Part shown: in pieces, positions 19 through 4,046 of the stretch
Position numbering within the stretch: the stretch's first letter is position 1
Layout: every line of letters begins with the position of its first letter
The notes under the pieces: model-generated
Databases searched by the model: none
What the model was told of the DNA's origin: nothing
What the model saw: only the letters and a program-made list of their open reading frames with translations
Program-made: the position numbers and the translations under genes
DNA from: a virus
Lineage: Duplodnaviria; Heunggongvirae; Uroviricota; Caudoviricetes
Length of the DNA: 33,224 nucleotides
Virus record (IMG/VR): IMGVR_UViG_2698536361_000001
Reading direction: 5' to 3' (one strand)

Positions 19-147
19 TTACTCCCTGACAGGGTTCGTAGGCCACTCAATATCAGGTGCAGTTGATGTATCAACACGGTTCAGCAGCATCCGATACTTT
101 TTCCAGGCTTCCAGCAACGGGGTTTCTTCCTCCGTTGCATATACAGC
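19..147 (-). pseudogene. tfa: 3' remnant of a tail fibre assembly (Tfa) gene: 42 codons, no start codon, in-frame TGA immediately upstream
   Basis: Minus-strand frame translates to [42 protein letters not shown], matching the conserved C-terminus of lambda-family Tfa proteins as I remember them; lies directly downstream of the stop of the 158..451 ORF. Confidence 0.55.
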
Positions 148-157
148 TCACCTTTTT

Positions 158-451
158 TCACCCACGATTAACCAACAGCCAGACCAGCAGACACGCCACC
201 ACCGGCACAGCAAAATCCATCAGGCTTGCCACATCCCATGCACGTGTATCAAAACCGCCCCACCACGGCATATTCATTCGCTTGCCATGCCCGAACATTT
301 CGATCCAGCGATATTCTGCCTGGGTGTGTTCACGCGCAATGAAGAACGTACAACCGGCTATCGCCCCGTAAGCCCAGTTCCCGGTAAAAAGACCAATCAG
401 TAGCTGCGCAGCCACAGCACAAAGCGCATGAAGGAAAGGTGTTATATCCAT
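158..451 (-). CDS. Hypothetical small membrane protein (about 97 aa from MDITPF; the ORF track extends to 466 with a non-ATG first codon)
   Basis: ORF 158..466; AGGA 5 nt upstream of the ATG at 451; three hydrophobic stretches (e.g. ALCAVAAQLLIGLF, AVPVVACLLVWLLV); no family recognised. Confidence 0.5.
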   Translation of the reverse strand: MDITPFLHALCAVAAQLLIGLFTGNWAYGAIAGCTFFIAREHTQAEYRWIEMFGHGKRMNMPWWGGFDTRAWDVASLMDFAVPVVACLLVWLLVNRG

Positions 452-460
452 TTTCATCCT

Positions 461-488
461 ACCCAATAAAACGGGGCGCTCGGCCCCT
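461..488 (-). terminator. Putative intrinsic terminator downstream of the 346-aa gene
   Basis: Minus-strand GGGGC-CGAGC-GCCCC hairpin followed by GTTTTATTGGG. Confidence 0.4.
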
Positions 489-493
489 TAATA

Positions 494-1534
494 TTATTTA
501 GACGCAAGCGCCGCCTCAATTGCAGATAATCTTTGTCTTAATTCTGCGTTTTCTTCTTCCAGTGCTGTTATTCTGTCGTCTGACTCTCTGGCTACCTGAA
601 CAAGCAAGCCAGTAACACCAGAATAATCTACTGTGTAATAACGTTCACCTTCTTCACCTTCCGATCCGCTCGCACCGTCCTGATATTTCATTGCGGAACC
701 TACAACTTCTGGGATTGCTTCCAGAGCTTCCTGTGCAATGACACCAGCATAGGGCATACCGTTTTCTTTAAGCGTGTATGTATAGCCGTTCATTTTACGG
801 ATGCGGTCGGTTGCATTATCGATCACCTGAATGTTGTCTTTCAGATCCCGGTCGGAATGCTGGTTAAATGCGGTGGCATGACATGCACCATTAACGCTTA
901 ACATATAGGTGTTATCGGTATTTTTCTGCGCATAGAACATATAAGCGCCACCATCAACACCGACTTCATAAACAACAGGACGGCTGGAGTTGCCCCACAA
1001 TTGAGCAGTAACACCAGCATAAGCGGTTCCCTGTGTGTTTAATGTCATGGTTGACCCATGATTGGCATATTTGATCTGTAATGTGTCGGTGTAATCAAAT
1101 TTAATAAGCGCGTTACTTCCACGCTTGCTGTATGACATAAGGCAGTTACCCATTTTGAGGTATCCGCTGTCACCGGGAAAAATCATCGTACCGCCATAAA
1201 GGTTGGTAAAGTCCCAGCAAATGTTTGTCCCGTTATCGTTCAGGTTAAGGCGCGCCATTGCGTTACCTGGACTGTCTATCCATTTTTTGAGGTATAGTTC
1301 GCAATACGCATCCTCAACACCTGCCGTCCTGTGAGTTGAGCGGAGTTTTCTCCCAAATATAGCTCCGCTAGTTGGCAATACCTGCTGATACCATGAAGCA
1401 GACCAGTCACCAACGATTTCATCTTTGCTGTCTACATATAATTTTGTTGCGTAGCTTCCTTGATCGTTTTTTAATTTGCTAACGTCGGATTTTAGCGTTT
1501 TGATGTCATCAGGAATTACTGTCGATGTAGCCAT
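494..1534 (-). CDS. Tail fibre / tailspike-like protein (346 aa) with a C-terminal intramolecular chaperone (peptidase S74-like) autoprocessing domain
   Basis: ORF with AGGAAGAAAA-ATG RBS; C-terminal 120 aa show the S74 pattern (HSDRDLKDNIQVID...GVIAQEALEAIPEVV...coiled coil RITALEEENAELRQRLSAIEAALASK), as in T5 pb1 and endosialidase chaperone domains. Confidence 0.7.
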   Translation of the reverse strand: MATSTVIPDDIKTLKSDVSKLKNDQGSYATKLYVDSKDEIVGDWSASWYQQVLPTSGAIFGRKLRSTHRTAGVEDAYCELYLKKWIDSPGNAMARLNLNDNGTNICWDFTNLYGGTMIFPGDSGYLKMGNCLMSYSKRGSNALIKFDYTDTLQIKYANHGSTMTLNTQGTAYAGVTAQLWGNSSRPVVYEVGVDGGAYMFYAQKNTDNTYMLSVNGACHATAFNQHSDRDLKDNIQVIDNATDRIRKMNGYTYTLKENGMPYAGVIAQEALEAIPEVVGSAMKYQDGASGSEGEEGERYYTVDYSGVTGLLVQVARESDDRITALEEENAELRQRLSAIEAALASK

Positions 1535-1543
1535 TTTTCTTCC

Positions 1544-1825
1544 TCACATCCAGCCACGAAGTTGATGCTCAACAGCAACCACGTATTCATCGAATAATGA
1601 CGATATTTGCGAATCATTAATGATGCGCACGTTTACAAAATATCCGTCTTCCTTAACACATACCGGTTCGCCATCTTCAGTCAGTTCTCCGGTTTCTTTG
1701 TACACGTTACCTATCACGTCGATAAGAATATCATCCTGCATCGACTCGTCATCATAATAGCCAATACTCTCCATAAAGGCCGAAAAGTCGGCCCTGTCTT
1801 CAAATTTGAGTGTTAAATCTTTCAT
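1544..1825 (-). CDS. Hypothetical acidic 93-aa protein, translationally coupled to stf
   Basis: ATG at 1825 overlaps the stf stop as TAATG; Asp/Glu-rich; no family recognised. Confidence 0.55.
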   Translation of the reverse strand: MKDLTLKFEDRADFSAFMESIGYYDDESMQDDILIDVIGNVYKETGELTEDGEPVCVKEDGYFVNVRIINDSQISSLFDEYVVAVEHQLRGWM

Positions 1826-4035
1826 TAGATTGACTCCCCCATTTGTGCCTCAGTTAATTCTTTATGCCAAATGCGTAAATTTTTCACATGACCGAACAGG
1901 TGTCTGTTGCCACTGGATGATTGTCCACCGATATTAATATTACCGGCAGTATAACGTTGCAATGTATGCAGAGACGGGGAGCTGCCACCTAAAATTCCAT
2001 CAACAACAACCTGCAACTGTTTATCTTCTGTAAACTTAAAGCCAGTAACAAATTTCCTTTTCTCTCTATTCCCATATGCTTTATATTCTGTTTTTGTTCC
2101 TTTGCCATTGGTGATAATTAGCCTTTTACCACGAGTGGTAAAACCAAAATACATATAACTTTCATCAGAAACTTCAGTCGTCGCCCCTGTAATTGAGATA
2201 TTAAGCAAACGCGCAGAGCCTTCTAAATTAGGCATTTCAGAATCCCAATTAACATTAACTTCCATGAGAACACTAACTGGTGGAGTTGCCCAATTGAAAG
2301 GTATAGGTATGATTACCTGGTCACTTGCTCTCGTGGCACCGACCTCTGTTGTGATGATAAAAGATGACGCGTTTAGTCCCTTTTCGAATTGAGGGGTTGT
2401 TAACATTAATTTATCGCCAGACTTGATTGATCGTTGATGTGCTCCAAACTCAAAACGCCCATACATATTTTTTGCTTCTGGTGATTTGTAGGTAAACTCA
2501 ACACGAATCCATCCATTAGACTCTCTGAATATGTTATAAGTTGCCGCCTCACCTCCAGAATAACTCAACATATCGCCAGTCTCGCAATCAATATATGCGC
2601 CAGCGGTCAGTGTGTTACTTGAGCCATCGTCGTTAACATATGATATTCTTGGACGCAACGTGATAATACCATCCCCACTTACTTTTTTAACTCTGCAGGA
2701 TAAAGTAACTGATTCATTTGCCGAAACTGAAATAACCCTGGTATATCCAGTAGAAATTAATGTCGCCCTTTCAGTTGTGGATGTTTCTTTAACGCCAAAC
2801 AAACCATAACTGAAACCATACTCATCAACTCCCGTGGTAATAGTTAAGTTAGCAGTGTCATAGTTCCACGATACTGGTGTATTCGTATAAGAAAAAGTAT
2901 TCGTTCTCTGACCTTCAATGAGCAGACCATCTTTTTCAAAACGTGGTTCATTTATCGCTGATTCAGCAAAACACCCAGACTTATCTATATACGTTGCAGT
3001 TGACGCCCTGGTAAATGAAACAACCTTTTCAGACGGCAATGCAATAACATCGTCACCAACTGTGATGCTCTTATATCCAGGAGCAAACCCGGTAATCATA
3101 TCCAGTGAATCGTTAAACGGTATCCACACCTCAGGTAACGGCTGTAAGACATATTTATACGGCTCCGCAGCCTGGCTTGCGTACTCTCTGGCTGCATCTT
3201 CGCTTGCTTTAGCTGCCGTCTGGCTTGCTGCCGATGCTTTCGCTGAGTTCGCAGCCGCTGTTTCGCTCGCCTTTGCGTTGGTTTCACTGGTTTTTGCTGC
3301 TTTTTGACTGTTAGCTGATGCAGTGGCAGAAGCAGCCGCCGCACTTGCAGAACCAGCTGCAGCACTCTCGCTTTCGGCTGCTGCAGCCTGACTACTTTTC
3401 GCCGCAGTTTCGCTGGCTTTGGCATTCGTTTCGCTGGTTTTCGCTGCCGTCTGGCTGGACTTCGCGTTGGTTTCGCTCGTCTTTGCGGCTGTCTCACTGT
3501 TTTTCGCGTTGGTTTCTGATTTTTTGGCTGCAGTCGCGGAGTTTGCCGATGCAGTCTGTGAGGCCGCTGCCGCCTGTGCGCTGTTAGCTGCGTTCGTTTC
3601 TGAGGTTTTCGCCGCGTTCTTCGATGATGCCGCTGCTGTTTCGGATTTCTTTGCCGCCGCTGCGCTCTGAGAGGCGGCTTCAGCGTTGCGTGCCGCTTCT
3701 TCCACCATTTCCTCAAAACGACGCAATGCCTCCGGCATGACATCATCTTCCGTCATGGCACCGAGAAAATCATTCAGCGTCCCCGGCTTAGAATCTTCAT
3801 ACACGGTGATGGTCCCGGCATGTGAAGGCGGAAAACCTTCAACCAGCAGGATAACGCTGTACTGGCCATACTCAACATCCATGCTGTAACGCCCGGCTTC
3901 ATCCGGATTTTCAGAGGCCACCGTGTTCACCAGTACCGTGGTGCTGTTACGCTTTGCCTTCAGTTGAATAGTGCAGTTCTGTATTGGTTTTCCCGCACCA
4001 TCTTTCAGCACACCTGAGATTTTTACTGCTGCCAT
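1825..4035 (-). CDS. stf: Side tail fibre protein Stf, chimeric: lambda-like N-terminus, Ala/Ser/Thr-rich repeat shaft, divergent C-terminal region ending in a LamG/ConA-like motif
   Basis: N-terminus MAAVKISGVLKDGAGKPIQNCTIQLKAKRNST matches lambda Stf; repeat units KTSETNAKxS; C-terminus GHVKNLRIWHKELTEAQM resembles a LamG jelly-roll end. ATG at 4035 preceded by GGAG (the ORF track starts at a GTG at 4041). Confidence 0.85.
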   Translation of the reverse strand: MAAVKISGVLKDGAGKPIQNCTIQLKAKRNSTTVLVNTVASENPDEAGRYSMDVEYGQYSVILLVEGFPPSHAGTITVYEDSKPGTLNDFLGAMTEDDVMPEALRRFEEMVEEAARNAEAASQSAAAAKKSETAAASSKNAAKTSETNAANSAQAAAASQTASANSATAAKKSETNAKNSETAAKTSETNAKSSQTAAKTSETNAKASETAAKSSQAAAAESESAAAGSASAAAASATASANSQKAAKTSETNAKASETAAANSAKASAASQTAAKASEDAAREYASQAAEPYKYVLQPLPEVWIPFNDSLDMITGFAPGYKSITVGDDVIALPSEKVVSFTRASTATYIDKSGCFAESAINEPRFEKDGLLIEGQRTNTFSYTNTPVSWNYDTANLTITTGVDEYGFSYGLFGVKETSTTERATLISTGYTRVISVSANESVTLSCRVKKVSGDGIITLRPRISYVNDDGSSNTLTAGAYIDCETGDMLSYSGGEAATYNIFRESNGWIRVEFTYKSPEAKNMYGRFEFGAHQRSIKSGDKLMLTTPQFEKGLNASSFIITTEVGATRASDQVIIPIPFNWATPPVSVLMEVNVNWDSEMPNLEGSARLLNISITGATTEVSDESYMYFGFTTRGKRLIITNGKGTKTEYKAYGNREKRKFVTGFKFTEDKQLQVVVDGILGGSSPSLHTLQRYTAGNINIGGQSSSGNRHLFGHVKNLRIWHKELTEAQMGESI

Positions 4036-4046
4036 ATCCACTCCAC

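What the first reader, a model, noticed from the sequence alone, without database searches (positions are those of the whole stretch)
158..451. Small three-helix membrane protein inserted between the fibre module and the tfa remnant
A roughly 97-aa ORF with three hydrophobic segments follows a terminator hairpin (461..488) and ends 10 bp before the tfa remnant. It occupies a classic moron position. Small membrane proteins here are often lysogenic-conversion or superinfection-exclusion factors, but nothing in the sequence assigns a function.
Basis: inference. Interest (0 to 1): 0.45.

Follow-up and report, generated by a model that had tools for sequence, protein, structure and literature searches.

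The report
Conserved small membrane protein after tail-fibre genes
This is a real 97-residue inner-membrane protein of unknown function, found in prophages of about a third of E. coli genomes and sitting just after the tail-fibre genes in many unrelated phages, and nobody has tested what it does.

Summary
The ORF at 158..451 (minus strand, 97 aa) is real. It has an AGGA ribosome-binding site, three predicted helices (AlphaFold2 pLDDT 94) and dN/dS of about 0.11. It matches phrog_1443 (unknown function) and is 95% identical to phage 21 CPT_21_24. It occurs in 1900 of 5426 complete E. coli genomes, always as "hypothetical protein". Pfam, NCBIfam, PADLOC, PDB and Foldseek give no match.

It is not an insert. 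It is the constant last gene of the late operon, flanking a variable receptor-binding cassette. The S74 fibre plus hairpin (463..1534) is the inserted piece. Across lambda-like, P2-like and P22-like phages of several bacterial groups it lies directly 3' of the fibre or spike gene, often overlapping it.

Virulent coliphages with the same lateral fibre and 93-aa gene lack it, so it is accessory. It has no promoter of its own. Related copies lie in non-phage chromosomal sites in Sphingomonadales (bamD-recN-ligA-X).

The core H8 / R40-E41-x-x-Q44-A45-E46 / W72 / P83 is near-invariant and does not track fibre type. This argues against receptor-specific masking.

Best guess, at low confidence: an accessory envelope-directed factor (exclusion or conversion) acting on a conserved inner-membrane target.

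The parts
158..451 (-). 97-aa ORF encoding a three-helix inner-membrane protein. Member of phrog_1443; 95% identical to phage 21 CPT_21_24.
457..460 (-). Shine-Dalgarno-like AGGA, 5 nt upstream of the ATG at 451.
   Evidence: Read directly from the sequence. Phage 21 has AAGGAGG at the equivalent place.
463..487 (-). Weak terminator-like hairpin: a 5-bp G+C stem at 473-487 plus a U-rich tail at 463-472. It lies between the S74 fibre gene and the ORF and belongs to the inserted S74 cassette.
19..150 (-). 3' remnant of a lambda-type tail-fibre assembly gene (tfa), encoding ...[43 protein letters not shown] annotates 19..138. The remnant is in frame with the ORF's stop codon. The junction is common to all E. 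coli versions examined.
494..1534 (-). 346-aa short fibre with a C-terminal Peptidase_S74 intramolecular chaperone domain. This cassette is absent from the phage 21-type arrangement.
1544..1825 (-). 93-aa acidic protein (phrog_1361) that always follows the lateral fibre gene. Only 54% identical to its phage 21 counterpart.
1825..4041 (-). 738-aa side tail fibre (Stf-type). It has a conserved N-terminus, Ala/Ser/Thr-rich repeats and a variable distal domain.

Best explanation
The ORF encodes a conserved, accessory, three-helix inner-membrane protein. It is the constant terminal gene of the lambdoid late operon, immediately 3' of the exchangeable receptor-binding (fibre) cassette.

Shown:
- It is a real gene under purifying selection.
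- It is a stand-alone gene with no obligate partner.
- It sits next to fibre or spike genes in many phage types.
- It does not co-vary with the fibre.
- It is not needed by virulent phages that use the same fibre.
- It has chromosomal relatives outside phages.

Inferred:
- It is transcribed with the late genes by Q-antiterminated read-through of the weak hairpin, and at most weakly in the lysogen.
- Its near-invariant polar cluster is H8 on helix 1, R40-E41-x-x-Q44-A45-E46 at the end of helix 2, the MPWWGGFD loop, W72, and D79/P83 on helix 3. All of these lie at one face of the membrane and would form a binding or catalytic site for a component conserved across Proteobacteria.
- That component would be a conserved inner-membrane protein or a lipid-linked envelope precursor, not a phage-specific receptor.

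The most likely biological role is a generic envelope-directed accessory function, either blocking incoming phage at the inner membrane or remodelling the envelope. This role benefits temperate phages or their hosts. It is not virion assembly. The descriptive part is well supported; the confidence of 0.35 refers to the functional part.
For: Real gene.
-.
- dN/dS 0.11.
- pLDDT 94.4.

Constant flank of a variable cassette.
- The protein is 94.8% identical between the window and phage 21, while the adjacent 93-aa protein is only 54% identical.
- Similarity to phage 21 starts at the ATG, and the tfa junction is shared.

Fibre adjacency across phage types.
- Lambda-like E. coli prophages.
- P2-like Aeromonas, with an ATGA overlap onto an 875-aa fibre.
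- Halomonas phiHAP-1, after tfa.
- Comamonas, after a J-like protein.
- Desulfovibrio, with zero gap after an S74 spike.
- Of 29 diverse IMG/VR loci, 20 have the gene directly after a large gene and 24 within one small ORF.
- Those upstream proteins hit tail-fibre and tail-spike PHROGs.

Accessory, and mainly in temperate phages.
- The 93-aa family is in 181 phage records, including virulent Drexlerviridae, T5-like and rV5-like phages. The 97-aa gene is in 73 records, mostly lambdoid.
- Phages tunus and VogelGryff lack it.
- HC6-like phages carry a broken remnant.

Conserved site.
- R40, E41, Q44, E46, W72 and P83 are invariant, and H8 and A45 are at least 90% conserved, over 86 diverse members.
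- Variation among E. coli alleles is confined to helix 1 and the C-terminus.
Against: - No promoter scores 9/12 or better and there is no downstream terminator. Expression in a lysogen, which a classical exclusion or conversion role needs, is therefore unsupported.
- Late expression is an odd time for exclusion.
- Known exclusion proteins usually evolve fast. This one is near-invariant, and it has close relatives in non-phage chromosomal sites (bamD-recN-ligA-X, after pnp, near ftsZ, PBP1A and thiC). Those features fit a generic biochemical activity better than an arms-race protein.
- Intact copies exist in jumbo, presumably virulent, Aeromonas phages.
- Topology is unresolved. Lys+Arg counts favour a cytoplasmic loop. 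Arg-rich C-tails and basic helix 1-helix 2 turns in the alpha-proteobacterial members favour a periplasmic loop.
- There is no similarity to any known exclusion, conversion or defence family.
Confidence: 0.35

Rival explanations
1. Host-fitness or biochemical module unrelated to phage resistance. The protein would be a minimal membrane enzyme, or an ion- or ligand-binding unit, whose cellular version works in envelope or membrane homeostasis. Phages would carry it as cargo that benefits the lysogen.
For: - An invariant polar constellation (H, R, E, Q, E, W, P) is conserved over Alpha-, Beta- and Gamma-proteobacteria and Desulfovibrio.
- Conserved small or polar residues line one face of each helix: H8-A12-Q16-G20-G24, G29-G33, and D79-P83-C87.
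- Chromosomal copies sit in housekeeping neighbourhoods with no phage Pfam families among 91 neighbours.
- IMG/VR holds no close relative of the alpha-type copies; the best match is 53% identical.
Against: - No fold or sequence similarity to any known enzyme or transporter.
- Distribution among alpha-proteobacterial species is sporadic, and the chromosomal sites vary.
- The very consistent position directly 3' of fibre genes in unrelated phages is not explained by generic cargo.
Confidence: 0.25
2. Lysis-associated membrane protein: a holin, antiholin or lysis-timing modulator made at the end of the late transcript.
For: - It is about 100 aa with three helices, like class I holins.
- In a Comamonas prophage it is followed by two membrane ORFs and a phrog_3108 protein. 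In Aeromonas phage 62AhydR11PP it is preceded by phrog_3108 and a glycine-rich membrane protein.
- Accessory lysis regulators are dispensable, which fits its absence from virulent relatives.
Against: - The window prophage and phage 21 have complete lysis cassettes elsewhere (essD-rrrD-rzpD).
- phrog_3108 has no assigned function and no Pfam or PDB match.
- The long conserved loop and very short C-tail are unlike holins.
- There are no significant Pfam or PHROG holin hits; the only one is a single member at E=0.0036.
- Chromosomal copies lie next to ligA and pnp.
- Only 2 of about 100 contexts examined are near putative lysis genes.
Confidence: 0.1
3. Fibre or receptor-binding-protein maturation factor: a membrane-associated helper needed to fold, modify or mount the adjacent fibre.
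For: It is tightly packed or overlapping with fibre genes in many lineages, which implies co-expression. In a P2-like Aeromonas prophage it occupies the slot directly after the fibre gene.
Against: - It stays 95% identical while the fibre and the 93-aa protein diverge to 54%.
- It follows unrelated fibre types: Stf, P2 H-type, S74 spikes and J-like proteins.
- Virulent phages with the same lateral fibre and 93-aa gene lack it.
- It is pseudogenised in HC6-like phages that keep the fibre.
- Chromosomal non-phage copies exist.
Confidence: 0.07
4. Receptor-specific superinfection exclusion of the Cor or Llp type, in which the protein masks or removes the receptor used by the neighbouring fibre.
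For: Its position next to the receptor-binding gene is the same as that of cor, llp and the O-antigen conversion genes. That comparison rests on established knowledge and was not tested here. The gene is enriched in temperate phages.
Against: - The protein does not co-vary with the fibre.
- The same conserved core follows unrelated fibres in hosts with different surfaces.
- It is a polytopic inner-membrane protein, not an outer-membrane lipoprotein.
- There are up to 7 near-identical copies per genome.
Confidence: 0.05

Closest known systems
phrog_1443 / phage 21 CPT_21_24 'putative membrane protein' (UMO75439.1) / RefSeq WP_000355602.1
   Same: Same family. The match to phrog_1443 is full length at E=2.8e-58. 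The protein is 94.8% identical to the phage 21 protein and sits at the same position after the side tail fibre and the 92-aa gene.
   Different: Nothing substantive differs, apart from the S74 fibre and hairpin inserted upstream in the window. None of these entries has a function.
Small inner-membrane superinfection-exclusion proteins (T4 Imm, HK97 gp15, P22 SieA). Comparison from established knowledge.
   Same: A small phage-encoded inner-membrane protein that is dispensable for virion formation, sits within or at the end of structural gene clusters, and is found mainly in temperate phages.
   Different: - No sequence or profile similarity.
- No promoter of its own.
- Near-invariant across phyla rather than fast-evolving.
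- Has chromosomal non-phage relatives.
- No phenotype is known.
Fibre-adjacent exclusion and conversion genes (cor of phi80/N15/T1, llp of T5, gtrABC of P22, oac of Sf6, iap of D3). Comparison from established knowledge.
   Same: It lies immediately next to the receptor-binding gene and encodes an envelope protein.
   Different: Those genes are matched to the receptor or O-antigen of the neighbouring fibre or spike. This protein is constant across unrelated fibres. It gives no hit to GtrA or acyltransferase families.
Class I holins (lambda S105)
   Same: About 100 aa with three helices. In the window arrangement there is an in-frame upstream ATG giving M-K-M, which resembles a dual start.
   Different: - A 35-residue highly conserved loop and almost no charged C-terminal tail.
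- Separate from the lysis cassette.
- The M-K-M start is absent in phage 21.
- No significant holin family hits.

Membership tests
phrog_1443 (PHROGs, unknown function) | Full-length profile HMM match | tested here: met
   E=2.8e-58, residues 1-96 against profile positions 1-96 of 97.
Moron (autonomous accessory transcription unit in a phage genome) | Own promoter upstream and terminator downstream | tested here: not met
   No sigma-70-like site at 9/12 or better lies near the ORF, and there is no terminator-like site downstream. The only hairpin is upstream. A weak 8/12 site (TTGAGG-17-TAATAT, 519..491) is no better than chance.
Moron (autonomous accessory transcription unit in a phage genome) | Dispensable, and present or absent among otherwise related phages | tested here: met
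   Absent from virulent phages with the same fibre and 93-aa module. Decayed in HC6-like phages.
Moron (autonomous accessory transcription unit in a phage genome) | Expressed from the repressed prophage | not testable with these tools
   Needs RNA-seq or 5'-end mapping in a lysogen.
Known superinfection-exclusion / anti-phage defence families (Imm, SieA, SieB, gp15, Cor, Llp; PADLOC models) | Sequence or profile similarity to a described family | tested here: not met
   PHROGs returns only phrog_1443 and phrog_34165, both of unknown function. PADLOC gives 0 hits. Pfam gives 0 significant hits for the protein and for 86 relatives.
Known superinfection-exclusion / anti-phage defence families (Imm, SieA, SieB, gp15, Cor, Llp; PADLOC models) | Reduces plating, adsorption or DNA entry of phages when expressed | not testable with these tools
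   Needs plating and injection assays.
Class I holin | Three transmembrane helices in a protein of about 100 aa | tested here: met
   Helices at 4-23, 26-52 and 74-96, with matching hydropathy.
Class I holin | Charged C-terminal tail, short loops, and a gene next to the endolysin | tested here: not met
   The C-tail is 'NRG' and the loop is 35 residues. The lysis genes essD-rrrD-rzpD lie about 25 kb away.
Tail-fibre assembly chaperone (Tfa-like) | Co-occurs and co-varies with its fibre; soluble protein | tested here: not met
   It is 95% conserved while the neighbouring fibre module diverges. It is missing where the fibre is present. It is a membrane protein.
GtrA-like / O-antigen conversion proteins | Match to GtrA, acyltransferase or glycosyltransferase families | tested here: not met
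   No such Pfam, NCBIfam or PHROG hit.

The most novel reading that the evidence does not exclude
The family is a minimal three-helix membrane enzyme or ligand- or ion-binding module. Its invariant His / Arg-Glu-x-x-Gln-Ala-Glu / Trp / Asp-Pro site at one membrane face would act on an envelope component common to Alpha-, Beta- and Gamma-proteobacteria and Desulfovibrio. Candidates are a polyprenyl-phosphate-linked intermediate or the inner-membrane site where phage genomes enter. Phages would have captured it from a cellular ancestor and parked it on the 3' flank of the exchangeable fibre cassette, as a receptor-independent, generic conversion or exclusion device.
Probability: 0.15. Interest if true: 0.7.

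Novelty: new member of a known kind. Interest (0 to 1): 0.38.

Why it matters
The gene is one of the commonest uncharacterised prophage genes in E. coli. It occurs in 35% of complete genomes, with up to 7 copies per genome. It holds the same slot next to the receptor-binding gene in unrelated phages of several proteobacterial classes.

If it excludes phages or remodels the envelope in a receptor-independent way, it would affect phage-therapy host-range predictions. It would also add a new small-protein mechanism to the list of prophage functions.

If it is a minimal membrane enzyme shared with Sphingomonadales chromosomes, it would be a new small-enzyme fold.

If it does nothing detectable, it is simply a conserved flank that serves as a recombination anchor for fibre-cassette exchange.

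Tried and rejected
- Curated libraries. Pfam, NCBIfam and PADLOC gave nothing. Pfam on 86 diverse relatives gave only noise.
- Structure. Foldseek against PDB and BFVD gave nothing at E<=0.001. The one meaningful row is a 42-aa fragment homologue in phage anhysbys. A profile search against PDB sequences gave nothing.
- Obligate partner gene. Clustering the neighbours of 70 loci found no family shared by more than 8 loci.
- Association with Peptidase_S74 fibres. Only 2 of 70 genome loci show it, so this was rejected.
- Lipoprotein idea. I-A-G-C34 looks like a lipobox. I rejected it because there is no basic N-region, the 'signal' would be 33 residues long, and C34 is not conserved family-wide.
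- Dual-start (M-K-M) holin-like regulation. This occurs only in the S74 arrangement and is absent from phage 21, so it is probably an accident of the junction.
- Lysis-cassette membership. It rests on two contexts and on phrog_3108, which has no known function.
- Failed search. A genome-contig scan with the most diverse alignment failed because no stretch was conserved enough. I repeated it with the closer alignment.
- Literature. Accession numbers, the PHROG id and the motif strings returned no paper. The phage 21 genome announcement and the infant-gut coliphage paper do not discuss the gene.
- Topology. Positive-inside counting gave conflicting signals.

Full report
**1. The observation**

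The window's left end is the distal end of a lambdoid prophage late operon on the minus strand. The order is J, lom, a 738-aa Stf-type side fibre (1825..4041), a 93-aa acidic protein (1544..1825), a 346-aa short fibre with a Peptidase_S74 domain (494..1534), a hairpin, the ORF (158..451) and a tfa 3' remnant.

In identical copies in complete E. coli genomes, the next genes are sitDCBA, convergent with the ORF, and then the icd region.

The ORF is exactly 97 aa. It has AGGA 5 nt before the ATG.

The hairpin is a 5-bp G+C stem at 473-487 with a U-rich tail. It meets the terminator pattern but is weak, and it is not distinguishable from shuffled sequence by energy (z=-0.56).

**2. It is a real gene**

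- PGAP calls it as WP_000355602.1.
- It matches phrog_1443 over its full length.
- It has 453 homologues in the large protein collection and 438 clusters at 50% identity. All are stand-alone proteins of about 90-130 aa, with no fusions.
- Forty distinct E. coli alleles give a median dN/dS of 0.11. Amino-acid variation is confined to helix 1 and the C-terminus.
- AlphaFold2 with a 59-sequence alignment gives pLDDT 94.4 and three helices at 4-23, 26-52 and 74-96.

**3. What is conserved**

Among close relatives (55-90% identity) from Escherichia, Leclercia, Citrobacter, Salmonella, Aeromonas and Comamonas, the stretch AREHTQAEYRWI...G.GKR.NMPWWGGFD.R.W is almost invariant.

Over 86 much more diverse members (mean column identity 27%), R40, E41, Q44, E46, W72 and P83 are invariant. 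H8 and A45 are at least 90% conserved.

All of these lie at the same face of the membrane: the start of helix 1, the end of helix 2, the loop, and the start of helix 3. Conserved small or polar residues also line one face of each helix (H8-A12-Q16-G20-G24; G29-G33; D79-P83-C87). That these form one site is my inference.

Which side of the membrane this face is on remains unresolved.
- Lys+Arg counts are 5.55 in the loop, against 0.14 in the helix 1-helix 2 turn and 0.76 in the C-tail. This favours a cytoplasmic loop.
- The alpha-proteobacterial members have Arg-rich C-tails and basic turns. This favours the opposite orientation.
- The phage 21 record cites TMHMM as predicting two transmembrane segments, N-in and C-in.

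**4. No known family**

- Pfam, NCBIfam and PADLOC give nothing for the protein.
- Pfam gives nothing for 86 relatives.
- PHROGs returns only unknown-function families.
- Foldseek against PDB and BFVD gives nothing at E<=0.001.
- A profile search of PDB sequences gives nothing.
- All source names are 'hypothetical protein'.
- No paper mentions the accessions, the PHROG id or the motifs.

**5. Context in E. coli**

The ORF is present in 1900 of 5426 complete genomes. There are 3885 places, a median of 2 per genome and up to 7. A few copies are on phage-plasmids.

The commoner arrangement is Stf, then the 92/93-aa gene, then the ORF, as in phage 21 and in prophages at potB or next to sit. The window's arrangement, with the S74 fibre and hairpin in between, occurs in 414 genomes.

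A four-way DNA alignment shows three things.
- Similarity between the window and phage 21 begins at the ORF's start codon.
- The upstream ribosome-binding region differs (AAGGAGG in phage 21).
- The ORF-tfa junction is shared by all versions. Phage 21 retains about 60 nt of the remnant.

So the ORF was not inserted between the fibre and tfa. The S74 fibre with its hairpin is the insertion, and the ORF-tfa junction is ancestral.

The ORF is 94.8% identical between the window and phage 21, whereas the adjacent 93-aa protein is only 54% identical. The ORF is therefore a constant flank of a variable receptor-binding cassette.

**6. Context elsewhere**

| Source | Position of the gene |
|---|---|
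| Aeromonas P2-like prophage | overlaps the stop of an 875-aa fibre (ATGA) |
| Halomonas phiHAP-1 | overlaps tfa and precedes the sheath gene |
| Comamonas | follows a J-like protein and a 72-aa ORF |
| Enterobacterales prophages | follows J (1028 aa) and a 550-860-aa fibre |
| Desulfovibrio | abuts a 935-aa pectate-lyase/S74 spike |
| P22-like Aeromonas phage | lies among the tail genes |

Of 29 diverse IMG/VR loci, 20 have the gene directly after a large same-strand gene, and 24 have it within one small ORF. Those upstream proteins hit tail-fibre and tail-spike PHROGs (also for genome loci).

No neighbour family is shared widely, so there is no obligate partner. Association with S74 domains is rare (2 of 70 loci).

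**7. Accessory nature**

The 93-aa family occurs in 181 phage records, including virulent Drexlerviridae, Seuratvirus, T5-like and rV5-like phages. The 97-aa protein occurs in 73 records, mostly temperate lambdoids.

Phages tunus and VogelGryff have the fibre and the 92-aa gene but no membrane gene. HC6-like virulent siphophages have only a broken remnant directly after their S74 fibre.

The gene is therefore not needed to build or use these fibres. However, a jumbo Aeromonas phage keeps an intact 87-aa copy.

**8. Non-phage relatives**

A scan of one genome per species found 68 loci. About 30 are in Sphingomonadales and other alpha-proteobacteria.

There the gene lies after bamD-recN-ligA in three genomes, after pnp, or near ftsZ, a class A PBP, thiC or kpsF. 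Among 91 neighbouring proteins, the top 25 Pfam families include no phage family.

These proteins keep the same core. Their closest IMG/VR relative is only 53% identical.

The distribution is sporadic and the sites vary. I therefore call them chromosomal copies, not a proven housekeeping gene.

**9. Expression**

No promoter-like site at 9/12 or better lies near the ORF in the window or in phage 21, and no terminator follows it. A weak 8/12 site at 519..491 is no better than chance.

Together with the overlaps onto fibre genes in other phages, this points to transcription from the late promoter. In the window, the weak hairpin would be read through under Q antitermination. That step is an inference from established lambdoid biology.

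**10. Interpretation**

The gene is a conserved accessory inner-membrane protein. It is physically tied to the 3' flank of receptor-binding genes but functionally independent of their specificity.

- Receptor-specific masking and fibre maturation are disfavoured.
- A lysis role has thin support. It rests on two contexts next to membrane ORFs and phrog_3108, which has no known function.
- Two readings remain. One is a generic envelope-directed accessory function (exclusion or conversion) acting through the conserved polar site. The other is a small biochemical module of cellular origin carried as cargo.

I favour the first at low confidence (0.35). The second is close behind (0.25). The two overlap in mechanism.

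**11. Novelty and verdict**

The ORF is already catalogued (RefSeq, PHROGs, the phage 21 record) but has no function and no literature. As a kind of thing, it is a small accessory phage membrane protein next to the fibre genes, which is familiar.

The unusual points are its breadth, the near-invariant polar core, its independence from fibre type, and the chromosomal relatives.

Interest is moderate (0.38).

Noticed in passing
window 463..1534: The 346-aa Peptidase_S74 short fibre and its hairpin form a cassette inserted between the 93-aa gene and the ORF, relative to the phage 21 arrangement. This arrangement is in 414 E. coli genomes, against 1868 with a near-complete ORF copy. It also occurs on a 106-kb plasmid (L162).
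   Followed up: partly
window 1544..1825: The 93-aa acidic protein (phrog_1361) overlaps the stop of the side fibre gene. It occurs in 181 phage records, including virulent Drexlerviridae, Seuratvirus, T5-like and rV5-like phages, always after a lateral fibre. It is probably a fibre-associated helper. It is only 54% identical between the window and phage 21.
   Followed up: partly
window 449..457: An in-frame ATG two codons upstream gives M-K-M-D..., which resembles the lambda S dual start. It is seen only in the S74-cassette arrangement (also in L218 and L233) and not in phage 21, so it is probably accidental.
   Followed up: partly
window 19..160: The ORF's TGA is in frame with the tfa remnant (...[22 protein letters not shown]...). 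Longer variants of 118 and 146 aa in metagenome assemblies (P0003, P0004) look like frameshift or read-through products.
   Followed up: no
L165 3465..3620 (Escherichia phage HC6): Virulent HC6-like siphophages carry a broken, unannotated remnant of the gene directly after their 859-aa S74 fibre. It is a 51-aa ORF that keeps RRRANIPWWGGFDWRAWDLPSLLD. This suggests the fibre end and the gene moved together and the gene then decayed.
   Followed up: partly
L139, L154, L157 (about 5.9-6.3 kb in each): In Sphingomonadales and related alpha-proteobacterial genomes, a close family member lies directly after bamD-recN-ligA. A nearly identical protein lies after pnp in a related metagenome-assembled genome (L134).
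   Followed up: partly
L004 2499..3780; L005 6001..7521: In an Aeromonas phage and a Comamonas prophage, the gene lies within three genes of a phrog_3108 protein (unknown function; contains an ESRF...GFWQFE motif) and of other small membrane ORFs. This is possibly a lysis cassette.
   Followed up: partly
proteins P0146, P0193, P0253: Three family members of 140-146 aa carry an acidic, aromatic-rich insertion of about 45 residues in the conserved loop, between ...FG and LRANMPWWGG.
   Followed up: no
window about 3439 onwards (Stf repeat region): The window differs from strain UPEC132 from position 3439, in the Ala/Ser/Thr-rich repeat part of stf. PGAP splits stf into pieces in UPEC132, whereas the window has one intact 738-aa ORF.
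   Followed up: no
window about 4.3, 24.3, 26.5 and 33.2 kb (coordinates from L166; may be shifted by indels): The prophage carries several other accessory envelope genes, as annotated in the near-identical UPEC132 copy: lom, iss (bor-like lipoprotein), an ompC-like porin and emrE. sitABCD lies just outside the left end.
   Followed up: no
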